This document shows, in pieces, positions 8,169 to 13,987 of a stretch of 59,724 nt of DNA (position 1 is the first letter of the stretch; the number at the start of each line of letters is the position of its first letter). Position numbers and translations under genes: made by a program. The notes beneath the pieces were generated by a model that made no database searches, was not told where the DNA came from, and saw only the letters and a list, made by a program, of their open reading frames with translations. The stretch is taken from positions 1 through 59,724 of the IMG/VR virus record IMGVR_UViG_3300037873_000022. One strand, written 5' to 3'. The DNA comes from a virus (Duplodnaviria; Caudoviricetes).

Positions 8169-8750
8169 ATGATGACCACCACCGAGTACCGGACCACCTC
8201 GGAAGACCTCCTCGACCTGGTTCCGATCGACAGCCCCAACGAGGGCAACCCGAGCCCTCGCCAGCTCGACCTGATGAACAAGCTGATCGCCGAGATCGAC
8301 CAGCTGGACTCAACCGCCGGTCGGATGGCCCACAGCTACATGGAGAAAATGGCCGGCCGCTGGACCCCGGGCCGCGAGGGCAACGCCAGCCGCTGGATCG
8401 ACCGGCTGATCGCGAAGGTCGGGGAGCTGCGCACCGCCCGCCCGGCGGTAGAGATCGAGGACGGGATGTACGTCCTGGACGGCGAGATCTACAAGGTCCA
8501 GCACGCGGTCCACGGGTCCGGCCAGCAGTACGCGAAGCTGTTCGTTCCCCCCGCGACCGAGGGGGAGCGCGCCACCTTCCAGTACGCGCCCGGGGTGGTC
8601 ACCCGGCTCCGGCCCGAGCACCGGATGAGCATGGACCAGGCCCGCGAGTACGGCGCCCTCTACGGGACGTGCGTCCGGTGCGGCCGGGTGCTCACCCGCG
8701 AGGACAGCATCGAGCGGATGATGGGCGAGATCTGCGCCGGCAAGATCTGA
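8169..8750 (+). CDS. DUF6011-like Zn-finger protein (moron-like)
   Basis: C-terminal CVRCGRVLT..DSIERMMGEIC motif; RBS GGAAGGATC. Confidence 0.75.
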   Translation: MMTTTEYRTTSEDLLDLVPIDSPNEGNPSPRQLDLMNKLIAEIDQLDSTAGRMAHSYMEKMAGRWTPGREGNASRWIDRLIAKVGELRTARPAVEIEDGMYVLDGEIYKVQHAVHGSGQQYAKLFVPPATEGERATFQYAPGVVTRLRPEHRMSMDQAREYGALYGTCVRCGRVLTREDSIERMMGEICAGKI

Positions 8751-8830: not shown

Positions 8831-8974
8831 TCAACTGGCCTTGATGATACGCGCTCCTGGATGCTTGGCCGCGAACGCCACGGCGGCAGCCTGGCTGGTC
8901 TTGGTGATCTTCAGCCCGCCGGGGAGCTGGACCGTGACCGACTCCCGCTTTCCCTTACCGCACCCGCAGCCCAT
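8831..8974 (-). CDS. 47-aa MGCGCG-type small basic protein (below ORF-track cutoff)
   Basis: MGCGCGKGKRESVTVQLPGGLKITKTSQAAAVAFAAKHPGARIIKAS; ATG overlaps the protease stop (TGATG). Confidence 0.7.
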   Translation of the reverse strand: MGCGCGKGKRESVTVQLPGGLKITKTSQAAAVAFAAKHPGARIIKAS

Positions 8975-10383
8975 CAGCTGACCTCCAGCAGCTCAGCCGG
9001 GATCTCCAGGGCCTCGGCCAGCTTGGCGATAGCAGCCTGGCGCTCGACCTCCAGGGTCCGGCGTAGCTCAGCGGCAGCCTGCTCGCGCTCGCGCTCGACC
9101 TTCAGCGCGGCTCGGACCTCAGCCGTGGCGCTAGCCTTCAGCTCCTGGACTGCCTGGTCCGGCCCGAGCGCCGCGGTCAGTGCGACCTGGCGCCCGTTGT
9201 GCGTGCGGGTGGCCACCGGGAACCCGGGCTCGGCGTGCTGGCGAGGTCCGGGGGACAGCGCCAGAACCTCGATCAGGCTGAGCCCGTCCGAGGTCTCCCG
9301 CCAGTCGCCGGAGACCCGGCGCCGGGCCAGGATGCGCTTGGAAGCGTCGTCCAGGTCGGGCCGGATCGGGCCGGCCACCGCGATCCCGAACACGTCCTCG
9401 TACATGCGGACATCGGCCGCGACGGTCTTCCCATCGTAGGCGGCCATCGTGGCGGAGGCAGTCAGGTTGAGGCCCGGGTGCCGGCCGCCCACAGTCAGGC
9501 GCCCTGCCCAGACCACGCCCCCGTCCTGGGTGTCCACCGGGTAGCGATGGAACCAGGAGTAGTCACCGCCCGGGTCCTTCGGGGGGGTGATGCACACGTC
9601 CGGGAACCCACCGTGGCAGGTCCCCCAGACCGCGATGTGCCCGTAGACCCGGCCGGCCTCCCAGTCGAACGTGACCTGGGTAGGGCCGGCCAGCTCGGGC
9701 GCGTCGAAAGCGACGGCCGGCGGTCCGACCGGCGCGCTCACCGAGGCGACCAGCGCAGCAGTACGAGCGGCGGCAGCCTCGTCCGGCTCCTCGTCCTCGT
9801 CGGGCTCCATCAGCTCCAGCGGGTGAGAGGTCTCCTGGAACGCGGGGATCGAGACCAGGGTGGCGGCCCGAACCCGGCCCTCGGTAACCAGCAGCTCGAC
9901 CTTCACCTCCTCGCCGTTCTCCTCGGCCTCCTCCAGGTCCTCCCAGGTGATCTCCTGGTCGGTGCCCTCGCGGACCGGGATGCCCTCGAAGCTGTCCAGG
10001 TCCACGCTGGGACCCAGCACGCCTTCCGAGATCAGCTTCACCGCCTCGGCCACGTCCTCCGCGAGCCGGGGCATCTCCTCGCGATCCACGTCATCGAAGA
10101 TCTCGCCGACCGCCCAGATCGCCTCCATCGAGTGGTCCAGCCCTGAACGGGTGACCGCCTCCTGGCTGACCCAGCCCTGATCGAGCGCACGCGCCACGGT
10201 GGCGAAGTGAGCCTCCTGGACAGCGCCGACTACCACCGCGCCGTCGTGGCCCATGTCGCGCTCGCGCGCCCACTCGAACGGGAACGGGGTAGGCGCGGCG
10301 GTGAGCCCGCCAGACGCGAACCGGCGCCCGTCACCGGTCGGCGCGTTGATAGGCGCCAGCATGGTCCGGAACCTGGTTCCCAT
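8974..10383 (-). CDS. Capsid maturation protease
   Basis: PTGDGRRF, GHDGAVVVG, SVDLD, AATLVSIPAF, GRVYGHIAVWGTCH, SGDWR motifs; lies between MuF and capsid genes. Confidence 0.8.
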   Translation of the reverse strand: MGTRFRTMLAPINAPTGDGRRFASGGLTAAPTPFPFEWARERDMGHDGAVVVGAVQEAHFATVARALDQGWVSQEAVTRSGLDHSMEAIWAVGEIFDDVDREEMPRLAEDVAEAVKLISEGVLGPSVDLDSFEGIPVREGTDQEITWEDLEEAEENGEEVKVELLVTEGRVRAATLVSIPAFQETSHPLELMEPDEDEEPDEAAAARTAALVASVSAPVGPPAVAFDAPELAGPTQVTFDWEAGRVYGHIAVWGTCHGGFPDVCITPPKDPGGDYSWFHRYPVDTQDGGVVWAGRLTVGGRHPGLNLTASATMAAYDGKTVAADVRMYEDVFGIAVAGPIRPDLDDASKRILARRRVSGDWRETSDGLSLIEVLALSPGPRQHAEPGFPVATRTHNGRQVALTAALGPDQAVQELKASATAEVRAALKVEREREQAAAELRRTLEVERQAAIAKLAEALEIPAELLEVS

Positions 10384-10430
10384 GATCTCTACCTCCTCGG
10401 TGGTCCCCAGCTTACGCGGTGGACGTACTG

Positions 10431-12056
10431 TTACTCTCCGGCGAACTGTCGGTTACTCATGTCGGTGTCCTCGCCGGGCTCCATCAGCAACATGGTGCAT
10501 CGGCAGTTGTGTAGTGCGATACCATTACCGGTGAACCAATGGTTGGACGTTGAAAGGTTGTAAACCTCATGGTCGCCCGTAAGCCTGTTGACCTCGATGA
10601 TCTCGCACGGCGCCATGCCAGCGGCCAGAGCGTATTGCAAATGAGCCGAGAAATCGGTGTCAGCCGTCCGGCCATCGTCCGGCGTTTGACGGAGCTGGGC
10701 CTGGAAGTCCGCAGCGCTAGTGACGCGAACCGATTCCGGATGGCTCGGCTCAGTCCCGCCGAACGACGTATCCTCACCCGGTCGGCCAACGAGGCTGTCC
10801 GCAAACCGGCCGTACGAGTCCCCCCGGACTGGCACGCGCGCAACCACAGCACCGCTCAGACCAGACAGCGGACGTTCTCGGCTGTCGAGCCCAACGAGAT
10901 CAAATTCCTGGAGCTGGCGGAGCGCACGGGGGTGCCGATACTCCGGCAAGTAGCCGTTGGCCCCTACAACCTCGATTTCGTCGTAGGTTCCGTCGCCGTG
11001 GAAGTCCATACGGCTGCCCATCACCCGCTCCGACTCCCCCGCCTTGCACAACGCACCATGAACCTGCTGGGCGCTGGTTGGAGCGTCGCGTACCTCTGGG
11101 GGTGGGGGGTTCAGGGTGGCCATGACGTACTGACCTGGGCGCAAGAGACCAGCCGGGACGTACCCGGTGGTGGTGAGTACCGGGTGGTTCGGGGTGACGG
11201 TGAGTTCGTGCCCGTTAGCCGTGGTGAGCTGGACCATCGGGCCGGAATGAAGGCGCCGGGTCGTACCGTATATCAACTGCCAGGGCCACTCGACCTGTGT
11301 TGACCCGATCACGCACTGGATCACCTCCTCAGCCGGGCCGGCCGGGTCACCCGGGAAGTCGATCGCGGCCCCGCCCACCACGAACGGGTCGGTCACCGGT
11401 ACCCGCTGCCCGTCCGCCTCATCATGGGTGTCCCGGGTCCGGTCATCGATGGTGCTCAACCAGACCTTCTCCATGGCAGTTCCGGTCTCTTCAGCCACCG
11501 CCTTAAACGCGTCGAACCGGCTTGAGTTCAACGCACCCATGGACTCAGTTCGCGCCACTACAGTGGCCCGGTTAGGCCATAGTGCACTGTCGGAAGTTGA
11601 CAGTACATCATCGACTCTCTGAGTGAGCTGGGGTATACCCTCGCCCAGGTTGACCCCCTGGGCCACCTGGCCGGCTACCATGTCGTACACCTCGTCCGAG
11701 ATGCCCACCATCCGGTTGTGGACCTCTGCGAGATAGGCACTGGCGAACGGGCGTTGCTCCCACGGGAACCCGGAACCGAGCAGGTTCTCATACGCGCCGG
11801 CCATGGCCGGCCGGACCGCCCCCGCGATCACTTCATCTACAGCGGCGGACCATTGGGGGGCCCGAGCCCATATCGCGTCCAGGTTAGGCGTGCCTCCCCG
11901 CAGCACGCGCCGGCTGGTCTCCACCAGCCAGCCGGACAGAGCCGACCAGAACGCCCGCCGGAGGGCACGCTCAGCGGCCCCGGCGTTGAGCCTGGCGTCC
12001 AGCCGTTGAGGCAGCCAGGGGTCCCGGCCGCGTCCGCTCCACACCGGCTCGGTCAC
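10431..12056 (-). CDS. Phage Mu gpF-like minor head protein containing an intein
   Basis: RATVVARTES, KVWLSTIDDRTRDTH, FPGDPAGPAEEVIQ|intein|CRC; predicted spliced product 271 aa. Confidence 0.88.
   Translation of the reverse strand: MTEPVWSGRGRDPWLPQRLDARLNAGAAERALRRAFWSALSGWLVETSRRVLRGGTPNLDAIWARAPQWSAAVDEVIAGAVRPAMAGAYENLLGSGFPWEQRPFASAYLAEVHNRMVGISDEVYDMVAGQVAQGVNLGEGIPQLTQRVDDVLSTSDSALWPNRATVVARTESMGALNSSRFDAFKAVAEETGTAMEKVWLSTIDDRTRDTHDEADGQRVPVTDPFVVGGAAIDFPGDPAGPAEEVIQCVIGSTQVEWPWQLIYGTTRRLHSGPMVQLTTANGHELTVTPNHPVLTTTGYVPAGLLRPGQYVMATLNPPPPEVRDAPTSAQQVHGALCKAGESERVMGSRMDFHGDGTYDEIEVVGANGYLPEYRHPRALRQLQEFDLVGLDSRERPLSGLSGAVVARVPVRGDSYGRFADSLVGRPGEDTSFGGTEPSHPESVRVTSAADFQAQLRQTPDDGRTADTDFSAHLQYALAAGMAPCEIIEVNRLTGDHEVYNLSTSNHWFTGNGIALHNCRCTMLLMEPGEDTDMSNRQFAGE
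10506..11315 (-). mobile_element. Intein (270 aa, residues 248-517 of the MuF protein)
   Basis: Block A Cys1 (CVIGST), block B LTVTPNHPV, block F EVYNLST, block G IALHN followed by +1 Cys; removal restores the EVIQCRC motif. Confidence 0.92.
10569..11303 (+). CDS. HTH plus DUF559/Vsr-like endonuclease encoded antisense inside the intein
   Basis: N-terminal HTH (GQSVLQMSREIGVSRPAIVRRLTELGLEVR); nuclease pattern E110..RQVAVGPYNLDF..AVEV....HH..R...L...GWSV..LW. Confidence 0.75.
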   Translation: MVARKPVDLDDLARRHASGQSVLQMSREIGVSRPAIVRRLTELGLEVRSASDANRFRMARLSPAERRILTRSANEAVRKPAVRVPPDWHARNHSTAQTRQRTFSAVEPNEIKFLELAERTGVPILRQVAVGPYNLDFVVGSVAVEVHTAAHHPLRLPRLAQRTMNLLGAGWSVAYLWGWGVQGGHDVLTWAQETSRDVPGGGEYRVVRGDGEFVPVSRGELDHRAGMKAPGRTVYQLPGPLDLC

Positions 12057-13987
12057 GGCGCCCCCACCGGCTCCAGGCCCTGGCCGCGGTTCGCGATCGA
12101 GAGCGCGGCGAACAGGAGGTCATCATGGTGCGCCATCCCCCGGGTCAGCAGCTCAGTCACGTAGCCGGACAGCAGCCGGGACAGATCCTCAGCGTCCACC
12201 CCGAGATCCCGGGCCACCTCGGGGAGGTGGGCCCAGGCATCCGCCGTGACCTTCGTGGCCTTGTCCGGGGTGACCGGACCGACCCGCACGTGTAGCTCGT
12301 GACGCGGGACCTCAGACCATCGTCCCCGACGCTCGGCCGGGGTGGTGAGCCGACCCCCGGCAAGCTCCAGCGCTCGCAGGACCATCAGCTTGGACGCGGC
12401 GTTGAACACGTGCTGGGGGTTTGGTGGTAGCGCCGGCTGAGCAGTCAATGCCAGCTCAGTGATCCGCTGGTTCAACTGTGCGGTGATACCCCGAGCGGTG
12501 CCCGATGCCGGCTCGTCCTCGTCCTCATCCGGCCCATCGTCCAGGTTCTCCGGCGGCCCGTCCGCCGGGTCCTCGTCCTCCTCGTCTCCCCCAGCCGGCA
12601 GGGCCGGTGCGGCGGCAGCCGGCGCGGTGATCGCAGGCAAGCCGAGCAGGCGTTGTATCGCCGGGTCGGCCAGTAGCTCCGGCCGGCCCTGCACGATCTT
12701 GAGGAGGAGCATCTGGACCCGCTGCTGAACGGTCGGCATCTGGTCGGTGGAGAACGCGCCAGCCTTCACGGTCTCCTCGTCGCTGAGCAGCAGCCGGTCC
12801 CAGAGCTGCAGCGCTTCGTCCATCCGGTTGGGCCGGGCGGCCAGCGGGCTCGTGTCGAAGCTGAAGGCGAACCGCTCGGGGTTCGGTACCCCCATCGCCT
12901 CCAGCGCCGGCCGGAGGAACCCCCGGGTGAGCGCATCGGCGATGTACGCCAGATACGACTTGATCCGCTTGATGCCCTCTTCGGAGATCGCCCAAGCGGT
13001 CCAGTGGTTGGCCGTGGCCATCCCGATCAAGATCTCGTTGGGGATCTCGAAAGCGGAAGCGACGCGCGAGATCGCCTTGTCTTTCATCGGGGTGATCTCG
13101 GCGGACAGCTCGGACCAGAACGTGGTCGGCTTGAGCTTGTCCAGGTGCTCGATCAGGTGGTCTGGGATGGTCGCCATCATCGGCACCATCGAGCTGGCCT
13201 TGCCCTGATCGCGCATCGAGGCGGCGGCGGCCCGCTGGAGGTAAGCCATGAACCCGGCCAGGCCCTCGGGATCGTCCTGGCCCCGGGGGTAGTCGATCCC
13301 TTCAGGCAGGAACCACACCCCGGCGCCGGTGAGCCGGCTGTCCAGCTCGGCGAACTCGCGCTTGGTCAGAAGCTCGATCTCGCGCAACGGCACGATGGCC
13401 GCACGGGTCGGGCTGTCGGCCTGGTCCACGTCGTTGGGGTGTGGGCGCCAACACCGGATCAGGATGTCGGTGCCGTCGCGGAGCTGTAGCTCGTTTCCGC
13501 CCCGGACCTTGGGCCGCCGGACCATCACGTCGTTGCCCCGGCGCTTGAATGCGGAGCCGGTGACCACGAACCAGGAGCCCTCAGCATCCCCGGGGCTGTT
13601 GGCCGCGCCCTCCCCGACGATCCAACACTCCCCGCCCACGGCGAGGTCCACTCCGGCCAGCCGGAGGTTATCGTCCCGCTGGGCTCCAGTGCCCAGCGGG
13701 ACGGCTGCCAACCGGGCGATCCGCTCCTCGGTGACCTCCCCAGTCTCCTCGCCGGTCTCGGCCACCTCGGTCACGAACAGCCGGGCCTGAGCTACCGAGT
13801 CCCCGATCCAGTTGGCCAGGAACCGGTGCTCGGGGACGATATCGTAGAGTCGCCAGCCTTCGATCTGCCAGTCTCGGTTCCCGAACTTCCAGGTTTTCCA
13901 GGAGCTGGCCTGGTCCAGCGGGACCAGCGCGGTAGCGGCAGTGACGGCCCGGCCGGCGCCGGGCAGGCTCGGGCGCTTCAGGGCCAC
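12053..13987 (-). CDS. Portal protein
   Basis: WQIEGWRLYDIVPEHRF, CWRPHP....ADSPTR, SRLTGAGVWFLP, ANHWTAW motifs of actinophage portals. Confidence 0.85.
   Translation of the reverse strand: MALKRPSLPGAGRAVTAATALVPLDQASSWKTWKFGNRDWQIEGWRLYDIVPEHRFLANWIGDSVAQARLFVTEVAETGEETGEVTEERIARLAAVPLGTGAQRDDNLRLAGVDLAVGGECWIVGEGAANSPGDAEGSWFVVTGSAFKRRGNDVMVRRPKVRGGNELQLRDGTDILIRCWRPHPNDVDQADSPTRAAIVPLREIELLTKREFAELDSRLTGAGVWFLPEGIDYPRGQDDPEGLAGFMAYLQRAAAASMRDQGKASSMVPMMATIPDHLIEHLDKLKPTTFWSELSAEITPMKDKAISRVASAFEIPNEILIGMATANHWTAWAISEEGIKRIKSYLAYIADALTRGFLRPALEAMGVPNPERFAFSFDTSPLAARPNRMDEALQLWDRLLLSDEETVKAGAFSTDQMPTVQQRVQMLLLKIVQGRPELLADPAIQRLLGLPAITAPAAAAPALPAGGDEEDEDPADGPPENLDDGPDEDEDEPASGTARGITAQLNQRITELALTAQPALPPNPQHVFNAASKLMVLRALELAGGRLTTPAERRGRWSEVPRHELHVRVGPVTPDKATKVTADAWAHLPEVARDLGVDAEDLSRLLSGYVTELLTRGMAHHDDLLFAALSIANRGQGLEPVGAP

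What the first reader, a model, noticed from the sequence alone, without database searches (positions are those of the whole stretch)
10506..11315. Intein whose putative homing endonuclease is encoded on the opposite strand
Seen: the MuF-like gene carries a 270-aa intein with intact splicing blocks. The roughly 180 aa between block B and block F, where a homing endonuclease normally sits in frame, show no LAGLIDADG or HNH motif and read like antisense shadow sequence (D/G/R-rich). A plus-strand ORF, 10569-11303, lies entirely inside the intein in exact codon register. It encodes an N-terminal HTH (aa ~9-48) and a DUF559/Vsr-like nuclease pattern (E110, RQVAVGPYNLD136F, AVE145V, H151H152, GWSVAYLW). 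The domains tile neatly: the ATG falls just inside block F, and the nuclease ends (~11100) where the sense-strand N-terminal Hint region ends (~11110). Established: Vsr-like (EDxHD) nucleases act as homing endonucleases in phage introns and inteins, normally in frame. Inference: this is a dual-coding selfish element. The sense strand splices itself out of a late head protein, while the nuclease is made separately from an antisense transcript, which could time it to replication. I do not know of a description of this arrangement. The usual EVDG and downstream Asp are changed (EVHT; no Asp), so activity is uncertain.
Basis: partly seen in the sequence, partly recalled or inferred. Interest (0 to 1): 0.93.

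Follow-up and report, generated by a model that had tools for sequence, protein, structure and literature searches.

The report
MuF intein with antisense homing nuclease
A self-splicing insert (intein) in this phage's head-assembly gene carries, on the opposite DNA strand and codon against codon, a real and conserved gene for a DNA-binding, Vsr-like nuclease that most likely spreads the insert; the layout is genuine and widespread, but a 2025 preprint already describes it.

Summary
Window 10506-11315 (-) is a 270-aa class-1 intein inserted exactly at ...EVIQ|CRC... of a MuF-like gene; Actinoplanes phage phiAsp2 has the empty site. The plus ORF 10569-11303 lies inside it in exact antisense register.

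It is a real gene, not a GC-driven shadow.
- 1640 representative proteins match it.
- It sits opposite the host gene in 20 of 20 fetched phage loci.
- In GC 45-52% phages the antisense frame has 1-2 stop-forming codons where 5-17 are expected.
- In four clades, insert substitutions are antisense-silent 172:37. The ratio is 23:65 in the Hint ends and 3:114 in exteins.
- The antisense protein folds confidently (pLDDT 86.8). Its best structural match is the I-Bth0305I homing endonuclease.
- Sense residues 121-217 are predicted disordered.

Expression and cleavage are not shown.

The layout is not new. Gosselin, Arsenault and Gogarten (bioRxiv 10.1101/2025.01.02.630785) describe anti-sense VSR-like homing endonucleases in actinophage minor-capsid inteins. 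This scan also found it before on other DNA.

Added here:
- reach far beyond actinophages;
- a frame-specific selection test;
- a 15-nt stretch constrained in both frames;
- a start codon paired to the block F histidine;
- a candidate promoter inside block G in enterobacterial and Vibrio members.

The parts
10431..12056 (-). MuF-like (SPP1 gp7 / Mu F) head morphogenesis gene, 541 aa including the intein
   Evidence: ORF. Pfam Phage_Mu_F 7.2e-12. PHROG 2468 head morphogenesis 7.4e-41. 59% identical over 270 aa to intein-less phiAsp2 Pas6.
10506..11315 (-). Class-1 intein, 270 aa (MuF residues 248-517): Cys1, block B TPNH, block F ...DHEVYNL..., block G ...ALHN, then Cys+1
   Evidence: Single 270-aa gap against phiAsp2 Pas6. 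NCBIfam intein N- and C-terminal models above cut-off. Foldseek top hits of the model are inteins such as TliVMA, PhoVMA and Mtu RecA.
11106..11315 (-). Hint N-terminal part (intein residues 1-70, blocks A and B). It overlaps the C-terminal tail of the antisense ORF.
   Evidence: pLDDT 76-96 in the sense model. Substitutions here are mostly sense-silent in relatives: 5:13, 6:7, 3:20 and 1:3.
10665..10955 (-). Sense-frame linker (intein residues 121-217) with no predicted fold; it must only stay open
   Evidence: pLDDT below 50 over 121-217 with a 42-sequence alignment. No Pfam domain. In relatives, insert substitutions are antisense-silent 172:37.
10506..10664 (-). Hint C-terminal part (intein residues 218-270: a helix, then blocks F and G)
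   Evidence: pLDDT 82-94. Substitutions are mostly sense-silent in relatives: 3:13, 5:5, 0:4 and 0:0.
10569..11303 (+). Antisense gene, 244 aa, in exact codon register with the intein: an HTH followed by a Vsr/DUF559-like nuclease (putative homing endonuclease)
   Evidence: ORF. 1640 representative proteins at E<=1e-3. tblastn to 129 phage records. Model pLDDT 86.8. Insert bit scores to 8 relatives are higher in the antisense frame than in the sense frame in all 8.
10593..10694 (+). N-terminal helix-turn-helix DNA-binding module (aa 9-42). Relatives carry one to several copies.
   Evidence: Helices 9-17, 22-29 and 33-42 at pLDDT 96-97. Sub-threshold Pfam HTH hits (GcrA, HTH_AsnC). PDB profile hits to HTH proteins such as 2lvs (7.1e-5) and 7bhy. 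1-4 matched stretches per protein.
10881..11156 (+). Nuclease domain (aa 105-196), with E110 (10896-10898), D136 (10974-10976), E145 (11001-11003), H147, H152 and R162
   Evidence: Profile hits to DUF559-type 3hrl (3.9e-6) and I-Bth0305I 3r3p (3.6e-3). Foldseek top hit 3r3p_B, prob 1.00, TM 0.58 on the target. Residue conservation. Residue equivalences come read against Taylor 2011.
10992..11006 (.). 15 nt fixed in both frames: antisense V-A-V-E-V (with invariant E145), sense D-F-H-G-D
   Evidence: Identical at all 15 nt in 16 of 21 loci, from GC 45% to 68%. The central 9 nt are identical in 20 of 21. Sense F105, H106, G107 and D108 are invariant in 42 sequences.
10552..10571 (+). Translation start region of the antisense gene: SD-like GAAAGG (10552-10557) and ATG (10569-10571). 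Both are the reverse complement of block F codons (His = CAT; ...NLS...).
   Evidence: Sequence. The start is opposite the block F His in 21 of 21 loci (ATG 19, GTG 2). GAGG or AAGG lies 8-11 nt upstream in most.
10520..10525 (+). Weak candidate -10 element (TACCAT), antisense of block G codons, 43 nt upstream of the ATG. Not supported by the consensus scan.
   Evidence: The same hexamer is present in the 3 Gordonia A loci. The sigma-70 scan found 0 sites in 10150-11500.

Best explanation
The element is a mobile intein that encodes its two functions on opposite strands of the same codon triplets.

Minus strand: the MuF-like head protein is translated through the intein. The Hint splicing domain (intein residues 1-70 and 218-270) excises the 270 residues and joins ...EVIQ to CRC.... 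The middle of the sense reading (residues 121-217) is an unstructured linker that only has to stay open.

Plus strand: a separate 244-aa protein is made from its own start codon, which is the reverse complement of the block F histidine codon. It has an N-terminal helix-turn-helix module and a Vsr/DUF559-like (EDxHD-related) nuclease domain.

Most likely action: this protein recognises and cuts the intein-less MuF allele near the ...CAG^TGC... junction in a co-infecting phage. Recombinational repair then copies the whole element in, i.e. homing.

Shown here:
- the intein and its exact boundaries;
- the antisense ORF is a conserved gene under purifying selection in relatives;
- its predicted fold and conserved acidic residues;
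- the sporadic distribution of the element.

Inferred, not shown: transcription and translation of the antisense gene, DNA cleavage, the target site, and splicing activity.
For: 1. Boundaries and empty site. There is one 270-aa gap against phiAsp2 Pas6. 38 of 48 nt around the junction are identical to the empty site.

2. Family size and placement. phmmer found 1640 representatives at E<=1e-3 and 903 at <=1e-10. tblastn hit 129 phage records from Salmonella, Gordonia, Pseudomonas, Klebsiella, Escherichia, Vibrio, Acinetobacter and other phages. In 20 of 20 fetched loci the match lies opposite the annotated host gene.

3. Openness is selected. Antisense-stop-forming codons (TTA/CTA/TCA) are 1.9-5.2% of extein codons in the 11 Jersey-like, Pantoea and Vibrio loci (GC 45-53%). 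That predicts 5-17 per intein; 1-2 are seen, all at the intein's ends.

4. Frame-specific selection. Variable codon columns that are antisense-silent but sense-changing, versus the reverse, were counted.
   - Insert: 62:10, 49:11, 44:13 and 17:3 in four clades, total 172:37.
   - Hint ends: 23:65.
   - Extein flanks: 3:114.
   - Fisher test, insert vs Hint ends: p = 4e-20.

5. This window itself. The antisense translation of its insert outscores the sense translation against all 8 relatives tested, e.g. 142 vs 83 bits (APunk), 84 vs 23 (Malisha) and 74 vs 30 (Snoke).

6. Fold. The antisense model has pLDDT 86.8 and pTM 0.69. Its top Foldseek hit is the I-Bth0305I catalytic domain. The profile hits 3hrl (3.9e-6) and 3r3p (3.6e-3). 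The sense model is below pLDDT 50 over residues 121-217, while its ends match solved inteins.

7. Active-site residues. E110, D136 and E145 are conserved in 33-35 of 35 sequences. They align with E170, D196 and the extra conserved acidic residue of I-Bth0305I (Taylor 2011, passages).

8. Mobility.
   - The element is better conserved than its exteins: Malisha's extein gives no significant hit, while the antisense ORF gives 124 bits.
   - The same element sits in a dCMP-deaminase-like gene in Virus Rctr197k; the host was identified by my reading of the zinc-motif sequence, not by a tool.
   - Related inteins sit in VG15, Phage_min_cap2, RtcB and 2'-5' RNA ligase proteins.
   - GC dips to 0.58-0.65 over the element, against about 0.70 in the flanks.
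Against: - No expression evidence exists. No listed sequencing run is RNA.
- The sigma-70 and terminator scan found 0 sites in 10150-11500.
- None of the Pfam or NCBIfam nuclease or HTH models reaches its curated cut-off for the window's protein: DUF559 15.1 vs 20.6 bits, MTES_1575 17 vs 38.2.
- No Foldseek hit for the antisense model has E<=0.001. The best is 6.9e-3 and covers 96 columns.
- The last Asp of the EDxHD motif (I-Bth0305I D222 / Vsr D97) has no conserved counterpart.
- The putative general-base His is present in only 20 of 35 family members, though the window has it.
- The selection test could not be run on the window's own lineage. No DNA of close relatives could be fetched, so it rests on four other clades.
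- In this window alone the open antisense frame is not unusual: 3 stop-forming codons against 2.8 expected.
Confidence: 0.75

Rival explanations
1. The antisense gene is real and selected, but it is not (or is no longer) a homing endonuclease. It could be a DNA-binding regulator, a nickase, or a nuclease with another role such as competition with co-infecting phages, merely housed in the intein.
For: The final Asp of EDxHD is missing family-wide, and the general-base His is in only 20 of 35 members. HTH modules are the most expanded part, with 1-4 matched stretches per protein. The preprint reports that some VSR-like HEN intein groups look vertically inherited (passage).
Against: E110, D136 and E145 are conserved in 33-35 of 35 sequences, which argues for catalysis. 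The gene is confined to inteins in every locus examined (20 of 20). The element appears in unrelated host genes and beside intein-less alleles, as expected of homing.
Confidence: 0.17
2. The sense-frame insert is the functional domain and the antisense ORF is a conserved but untranslated mirror image, kept open by codon bias.
For: The sense motif DFHGD is invariant in 42 sequences. In-register antisense ORFs are common in this GC-rich window. In the window itself the count of stop-forming codons equals expectation.
Against: Insert substitutions are antisense-silent 172:37, the opposite of exteins at 3:114. In GC 45-53% relatives 5-17 antisense stops are expected and 1-2 are seen. Sense residues 121-217 have pLDDT below 50, while the antisense protein scores 86.8 and has a nuclease fold.
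Confidence: 0.03
3. The window's copy is a decaying relic: the intein still splices, but the antisense nuclease is inactive in this lineage.
For: No close DNA relative was available to test selection in this lineage.
Against: The ORF is full length. It carries every invariant and near-invariant family residue, plus H147 and H152. A 69% identical full-length protein exists elsewhere (P0001). The EV-x-x positions are variable across the whole family, so EVHT is not a lesion.
Confidence: 0.05

Closest known systems
Full inteins with an anti-sense VSR-like homing endonuclease in actinobacteriophages (Gosselin, Arsenault and Gogarten, bioRxiv 10.1101/2025.01.02.630785; outline and passages read)
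   Same: The intein sits in a minor capsid (MuF-like) protein. The in-frame middle makes no recognisable structure. A separate ORF on the antisense strand has a Vsr-like core preceded by helical DNA-binding elements. The preprint reports HHpred similarity to 3R3P; here the Foldseek top hit and a profile hit are to the same entry.
   Different: The preprint surveys PhagesDB actinophages only. In the passages I saw it gives no frame-specific substitution test, no promoter or start-codon analysis, and no mention of Salmonella. This window is an uncultured IMG/VR phage. I could not see its Supplemental Table 1 (supplements closed), so I cannot say which of the Gordonia phages used here it lists.
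I-Bth0305I and the EDxHD (Vsr-like) homing endonuclease family (Taylor et al. 2011, PMC3239194, passages read; Dassa et al. 2009, known to me only as cited)
   Same: Bipartite build, with an N-terminal HTH/NUMOD-type DNA-binding region followed by a C-terminal Vsr-like nuclease. There are equivalents of E170, D196, the extra conserved acidic residue and, in the window, H213. It is the best structural match.
   Different: I-Bth0305I is encoded in frame in a group I intron loop; the Dassa et al. cases lie between split-intein halves or stand free. Here the gene lies antisense over a contiguous intein's codons. The D222 equivalent is absent, and the His is present in only 20 of 35 members.
Inteins with out-of-frame or antisense LAGLIDADG endonucleases (Synechocystis dnaX etc.; cited; Phillips, DeSimone and Gogarten, bioRxiv 10.64898/2026.09.14.751524, abstract and outline only)
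   Same: The homing endonuclease is encoded in a reading frame other than the one for the intein and extein. The suggested origin is secondary invasion of an intein by a free-standing endonuclease gene.
   Different: The nuclease family differs (LAGLIDADG against Vsr-like), and so do the hosts (cyanobacterial dnaX).
DUF559 / Vsr very-short-patch-repair endonuclease superfamily (Pfam PF04480; PDB 3hrl, 1cw0)
   Same: Same core pattern: E ... (Y/W)-x-x-D ... E-x ... R ... GW-x-V. The family profile hits 3hrl at 3.9e-6.
   Different: The window's protein is below the Pfam DUF559 cut-off (15.1 vs 20.6 bits). It lacks the D-G after the Glu, and Vsr itself is only a marginal hit (E 0.51).

Membership tests
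Intein (Hint domain, class 1) | N-terminal Cys/Ser, block B TxxH, and C-terminal (H)N followed by a Cys/Ser/Thr +1 residue | tested here: met
   The intein reads CVIGST..., TPNH...ALHN|C. NCBIfam intein_Nterm and intein_Cterm are above cut-off. Pfam Intein_splicing is below cut-off (28.9 vs 35.8).
Intein (Hint domain, class 1) | Precise in-frame insertion relative to an intein-less allele at a conserved site | tested here: met
   There is one 270-aa gap against phiAsp2 Pas6...EVIQ|CRCTMLL.
Intein (Hint domain, class 1) | Hint fold | tested here: met
   Top Foldseek hits of the sense model are solved inteins: 3 at E<=0.001, and Mtu RecA mini-intein with TM 0.53-0.63 on the target.
Intein (Hint domain, class 1) | Protein splicing activity | not testable with these tools
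   Inferred from intact blocks and from the essential head gene being otherwise interrupted.
EDxHD / Vsr-like homing endonucleases | Vsr-like nuclease fold | tested here: met
   Foldseek ranks 1-2 are 3r3p chains B and A (prob 1.00 and 0.99; TM 0.58 and 0.57 on the target), although E is 6.9e-3 and no hit reaches 1e-3. The profile hits 3hrl at 3.9e-6 and 3r3p at 3.6e-3.
EDxHD / Vsr-like homing endonucleases | Conserved Glu and Mg-binding Asp (I-Bth0305I E170 and D196; Vsr E25 and D51) | tested here: met
   E110 is in 33/35 and D136 in 35/35. They align to those positions. 3R3P carries D196A, as stated.
EDxHD / Vsr-like homing endonucleases | General-base His (H213 / Vsr H69) | tested here: inconclusive
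   The window has H152 at the aligned spacing. The family has His there in only 20 of 35.
EDxHD / Vsr-like homing endonucleases | Second Asp (D222 / Vsr D97) | tested here: not met
   No conserved Asp lies between positions 153 and 165; the best is D at 156 in 6 of 35. R162 is conserved instead, in 34 of 35.
EDxHD / Vsr-like homing endonucleases | Site-specific cleavage of the element-free allele | not testable with these tools
Pfam DUF559 (PF04480) | Score at or above the gathering threshold | tested here: not met
   15.1 bits against a cut-off of 20.6, E 0.022.
Anti-sense VSR-like HEN inteins (Gosselin et al. preprint) | Contiguous intein whose endonuclease ORF lies on the antisense strand within the intein and has a Vsr-like core | tested here: met
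   ORF 10569-11303 (+) lies inside intein 10506-11315 (-).
Anti-sense VSR-like HEN inteins (Gosselin et al. preprint) | The antisense ORF is functional, i.e. under selection and not a chance open frame | tested here: met
   in relatives. For the window itself there are only the higher antisense-frame scores.

The most novel reading that the evidence does not exclude
The element is an obligately interlocked two-strand gene pair, not just a nuclease gene that happens to lie antisense.
- The intein's own splicing blocks may double as the nuclease gene's expression signals. The block F His codon gives the start codon, and the block F 'NL' codons give the Shine-Dalgarno-like sequence. In enterobacterial and Vibrio members, the block G Ile-Ile codons, including the rare ATA, give an extended -10 TGnTATAAT.
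- The nuclease's active-site strand (VAVEV) is co-encoded with an invariant sense motif (DFHGD), so that 15 nt are frozen from GC 45% to GC 68% phages.
- This design is one of the commonest intein architectures in tailed phages, with more than 1600 protein clusters, far beyond the actinophages in which it was described.
Probability: 0.45. Interest if true: 0.6.

Novelty: new member of a known kind. Interest (0 to 1): 0.4.

Why it matters
Long antisense overlapping genes with both products functional are rare and often disputed in bacteria and phages. This family offers an unusually clean case: about 700 nt in which selection visibly switches strand along the sequence.

It also bears on how inteins acquire endonucleases. 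It fits invasion of a mini-intein by a free-standing gene, the 'splicing first' model discussed in the preprint.

It matters for annotation too. Most records examined here annotate only the head gene. Only phage PK1's record carries an antisense CDS among the loci fetched; two other records are listed with 'hypothetical protein (x2)' under the match.

For this window the news is modest, because it is one more member. The family-wide points could be tested directly in E. coli or Gordonia phages: the wide host range, the dual-frame-frozen motif, and the expression signals built from the splicing blocks.

Tried and rejected
- DNA of close relatives of the window. The search for related loci with the window's protein found nothing in viral contigs or genome contigs. 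So the frame-specific selection test could not be run on the window's own lineage.
Whether all 1640 homologues lie inside inteins is therefore not shown. A rough regular-expression count found the antisense image of block B at a constant distance in 111 of the 135 sequences (of 150) that matched my nuclease-core pattern. The misses may be pattern failures.
- Expression. No RNA holder was listed. Laying contigs of 4 DNA runs gave only short pieces, no listed differences and nothing usable.
- Promoter and terminator scan of the window: 0 sites. A scan of E. coli phage Snoke did not list the TGnTATAAT site because its -35 is poor. The Vibrio locus did list it.
- Curated family libraries for the antisense protein gave only sub-threshold hits. 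The weak PHROG 'HNH endonuclease' hit (0.013) was not pursued.
- 'Chance ORF in GC-rich DNA' was considered and rejected.
- 'Sense insert is a folded domain' was considered and rejected for residues 121-217. It stays open for the hairpin around DFHGD (residues 95-118, pLDDT 63-73).
- Literature searches did not surface the prior description. Search 60, prompted, did.
- A recount gives 16 of 21.
Full report
WHAT IS THERE. The window is a complete 59,724-bp virus record with direct terminal repeats. At 10431..12056 on the minus strand lies a 541-aa MuF-like head morphogenesis gene. Pfam Phage_Mu_F scores 7.2e-12 and PHROG 2468 scores 7.4e-41. It sits between a 644-aa ORF upstream (12053..13987) and a 469-aa ORF downstream (8974..10383), both on the same strand and both without Pfam hits.

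Residues 248-517 of the gene are an intein. It begins CVIGST, has block B TPNH, and ends ALHN followed by Cys. The NCBIfam N- and C-terminal intein models pass their cut-offs; Pfam Intein_splicing does not (28.9 vs 35.8 bits). A global alignment with Pas6 of Actinoplanes phage phiAsp2 (59% identical, intein-less) shows a single clean 270-residue gap between ...EVIQ and CRCTMLL. 38 of 48 nt around the junction match the empty phiAsp2 site. GC falls to 0.58-0.65 over the element, against about 0.70 on either side.

THE ANTISENSE ORF. ORF 10569..11303 (+), 244 aa, lies wholly inside the intein. From the coordinates it is in exact antisense register: its codon position 1 is the intein's position 3. 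In this GC-rich window that alone means little. The intein has 3 codons that would read as antisense stops (TTA/CTA/TCA) against 2.8 expected from the exteins. Other long antisense ORFs lie nearby, e.g. 9199..10146. Curated libraries give only sub-threshold hits for its product: GcrA-type HTH 2.9e-4, REase MTES_1575 6.5e-3, DUF559 0.022 and NCBIfam DUF559 3.5e-3.

IT IS A REAL, LARGE PROTEIN FAMILY. An exhaustive phmmer search found 1640 representative proteins at E<=1e-3 and 903 at <=1e-10. The listed best 150 are 124-436 aa long and show one to four matched N-terminal stretches. A 35-sequence alignment (A1) has G19, L40, R48, N134, D136 and E145 invariant. E110, Y133, A143, V144, R162, G170, W171 and W177 are in at least 90%.

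tblastn against 50,697 phage records hit 129 of them: Salmonella 62, Gordonia 15, Pseudomonas 15, Klebsiella 8, Escherichia 6, Vibrio 3, Acinetobacter 3 and others. I fetched 20 of these loci. In 20 of 20 the match lies on the strand opposite the annotated host gene and inside an intein. Hosts are:
- MuF-like proteins at the conserved ...H-x-N|C-R/K-C/S... site;
- gp5 of Gordonia phage Malisha;
- in Virus Rctr197k, a gene I read as a dCMP deaminase from its zinc motifs (...HLPCVA|CAKRLIN...). That host identification is my reading of the sequence, not a tool result.

The conserved C-terminal 'YRVIRGxGE' of the family is simply the antisense image of intein block B (L-T-V-T-P-N-H-P-V). I found it at a constant distance in 111 of the 135 sequences (of 150) that matched my nuclease-core pattern. 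So most of the family probably lives inside inteins.

IS THE ANTISENSE FRAME SELECTED? There are three independent tests.

First, stop-codon depletion. In the 11 Jersey-like, Pantoea and Vibrio loci (GC 45-53%), TTA/CTA/TCA make up 1.9-5.2% of extein codons. That predicts 5-17 per intein. Observed are 1-2, always at the extreme ends. In the two Vibrio phages (325-codon intein, GC 0.45-0.46) 15-17 are expected and 1 is seen, at intein codon 2, where it serves as the ORF's own stop.

Second, the direction of silent change. The two frames share codon triplets, so every variable codon column can be classed by which protein it changes. In the insert the counts for 'sense changes, antisense silent' against 'antisense changes, sense silent' are:
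- 62:10 in 9 Jersey-like phages;
- 49:11 in Gordonia group A;
- 44:13 in Gordonia group B;
- 17:3 in the Vibrio pair;
- 172:37 in total.

In the first 60 and last 45 intein codons (the Hint blocks) the total reverses to 23:65. In the extein flanks it is 3:114. Fisher's test for insert against Hint ends gives p = 4e-20 with odds ratio 13. Each column is counted once per clade, so shared ancestry within a clade does not inflate the counts.

Third, the window itself. The antisense translation of its insert scores higher than the sense translation against all 8 relatives tried: 142 vs 83 bits (APunk), 99 vs 43 (Vivi2), 84 vs 23 (Malisha), 74 vs 30 (Snoke) and 34 vs 21 (Vibrio).

The limit of these tests is that no DNA from close relatives of the window's own lineage could be obtained. 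Selection is therefore shown for the family and inferred for this copy. This copy is full length and keeps every conserved residue.

STRUCTURE. With alignment A1 the antisense protein is predicted at mean pLDDT 86.8 and pTM 0.69.
- Helices at 9-17, 22-29 and 33-42 form the HTH.
- A helical linker follows.
- An alpha/beta core has strands 125-130, 133-139 and 142-147, helix 157-168, strand 172-177 and helix 181-196.
- Residues 223-237 are below pLDDT 50; blocks from about residue 211 onward average 66 or less.

The top two Foldseek matches in the PDB are chains of 3r3p, the catalytic domain of homing endonuclease I-Bth0305I (prob 1.00 and 0.99, TM 0.58 and 0.57 on the target). Their E-values are only 6.9e-3 and 2e-2, and none of the 345 matches reaches 1e-3. 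The family profile hits the DUF559-type 3hrl at 3.9e-6, a two-HTH protein 2lvs at 7.1e-5, 3r3p at 3.6e-3 and Vsr 1cw0 only at 0.51.

I read that alignment against the residue list in Taylor et al. 2011 (PMC3239194, passages).
- E110 corresponds to E170 (Vsr E25).
- D136 corresponds to D196 (Vsr D51). The crystal form is D196A, which explains the Ala in the alignment.
- E145 corresponds to the extra conserved acidic residue at the Vsr F62 position.
- H147 corresponds to N208 (Vsr H64).
- H152 corresponds to H213 (Vsr H69).
- There is no counterpart of D222 (Vsr D97). R162 is conserved nearby instead.

Across A1, H147 is in 18/35 and H152 in 20/35. The protein therefore works like an EDxHD/Vsr-type enzyme but fails one defining residue of that motif.

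The sense intein was predicted with a 42-sequence alignment (A2). It has high confidence for residues 1-70 and 218-270, and those parts match solved inteins. Confidence is intermediate for 71-120. It is below 50 for all of 121-217.

THE SENSE FRAME IS NOT PURE FILLER. In A2 the sense residues F105, H106, G107 and D108 are invariant. That set was gathered by sense-frame word matching, which favours such words. In the 21 DNA loci the 15 nt at 10992-11006 are identical in 16 of 21, from GC 45% to 68%. These 15 nt read V-A-V-E-V on the antisense strand and D-F-H-G-D on the sense strand. The central 9 nt are identical in 20 of 21. For each of the five codons, every alternative that is synonymous in one frame changes the residue in the other. 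Complete fixation is therefore what joint selection on both proteins predicts; selection on the nuclease alone would leave its third positions free. In the sense model the motif sits in the turn of a hairpin (strands 95-99 and 113-118, pLDDT 63-73). Its role is unexplained.

EXPRESSION SIGNALS (INFERENCE). In 21 of 21 loci the antisense start codon is the reverse complement of the conserved block F histidine codon: CAT gives ATG in 19 and CAC gives GTG in 2. A GAGG or AAGG, the antisense of the block F 'N-L' codons, lies 8-11 nt upstream in most. In the window it is GAAAGG at 10552-10557.

In 9 of 11 Jersey-like, Pantoea and Vibrio loci an extended -10 element, TGnTATAAT, lies 45 nt upstream of the ATG. 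It is formed by the antisense of the block G codons ...G-I-I-A/T-H. This requires the codon pair ATT-ATA, and ATA is a rare codon in enterobacteria (from my own knowledge). TATAAT is present in 10 of 11. The consensus scan independently lists this site in the Vibrio locus, with TTGAAC at -35. The window has only TACCAT at 10520-10525, shared with the three Gordonia A loci, and the scan finds nothing there. No RNA data exist for the window.

MOBILITY. The element is far better conserved than its hosts.
- Against Malisha the exteins give no significant hit, while the antisense ORF gives 124 bits.
- Against Snoke the figures are 22 and 91 bits.
- The closest extein relative in the phage collection, phiAsp2, lacks the intein.
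- Related inteins, by sense-frame search, sit in VG15, Phage_min_cap2, RtcB, 2'-5' RNA ligase and MuF proteins.

This is the pattern of a homing element. Cleavage itself is untested.

WHAT IS KNOWN. My first three literature searches found nothing. Earlier notes of this scan pointed to a preprint, which I then found and read in part: Gosselin, Arsenault and Gogarten, 'Actinobacteriophage Inteins...', bioRxiv 10.1101/2025.01.02.630785.
[quoted passage not shown] Host proteins include minor capsid proteins.
- It credits antisense LAGLIDADG inteins to Gorbalenya 1998 and Gogarten 2002, and VSR-like endonucleases in split inteins to Dassa 2009.

A second preprint, Phillips, DeSimone and Gogarten (10.64898/2026.09.14.751524; abstract and outline only), treats an out-of-frame endonuclease in the cyanobacterial dnaX intein and has a section on selection in the two frames.

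The scan has also reported the same layout on at least five other genomes. In the passages I saw, the actinophage preprint does not mention Salmonella or promoters and gives no substitution test.

VERDICT. The window holds a new member of a known, recently described kind. The additions listed in the summary are leads for experiments, not a new category.

Noticed in passing
window 10992-11006 (and the same motif in L001-L021): The 15 nt that encode antisense VAVEV and sense DFHGD are identical in 16 of 21 loci, from GC 45% to 68%. The central 9 nt are identical in 20 of 21. Only joint selection on both frames fixes every base. The role of the sense DFHGD hairpin is unknown.
   Followed up: partly
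L001, L007-L013, L021 (antisense of intein block G, 45 nt upstream of the antisense ATG); window 10520-10525: An extended -10 promoter motif, TGnTATAAT, is built from the antisense of the block G Gly-Ile-Ile-Ala/Thr-His codons. It is present in 9 of 11 Jersey-like, Pantoea and Vibrio loci, with a TTGAAC -35 in the Vibrio phage. The window has only TACCAT at the corresponding place.
   Followed up: partly
window 10552-10571; all 21 loci: The antisense start codon is always the reverse complement of the block F His codon (ATG 19, GTG 2 of 21). The SD-like GAGG or AAGG is the antisense of the block F Asn-Leu codons.
   Followed up: yes
L020 (Virus Rctr197k, KX853510.1) 616-1968: The CDS annotated 'putative head morphogenesis protein' reads as a dCMP-deaminase-like protein (HxE and PCxxC zinc motifs, by eye). 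It is interrupted at PCVA|C by the same intein type with the antisense nuclease ORF. The annotation probably came from intein similarity.
   Followed up: partly
L002 (Salmonella phage PK1) 2411-3220 (+): Among the fetched loci, only this record annotates the antisense ORF as a CDS ('hypothetical protein'), plus a second overlapping plus-strand CDS. Records of vB_StyS-sam and PK2 also show 'hypothetical protein (x2)' under the match. All other fetched records annotate the head gene alone.
   Followed up: no
P0007, P0010, P0023, P0037, P0113, P0126: Family members carry two to four tandem N-terminal HTH modules in front of one nuclease domain, for proteins of 344-436 aa. The sense-frame linker of their inteins must be correspondingly longer. 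This may tune target-site length.
   Followed up: no
window 8169-8750 (+): A plus-strand 193-aa ORF with a C-terminal DUF6011 domain (4e-9) sits among minus-strand structural genes, 1.8 kb upstream of the antisense nuclease gene and on the same strand.
   Followed up: no
preprint passage vs L014, L019: The preprint names Sedona, Keitabear, Affeca and 'Angelicase' as carrying endonuclease VII-like out-of-frame HEN inteins (cluster 47). Here the MuF inteins of Sedona, Keitabear (hit only), Affeca (hit only) and Angelicage carry the Vsr-like antisense ORF. Either these phages have two different inteins or the classifications differ. The supplements needed to tell were closed.
   Followed up: no
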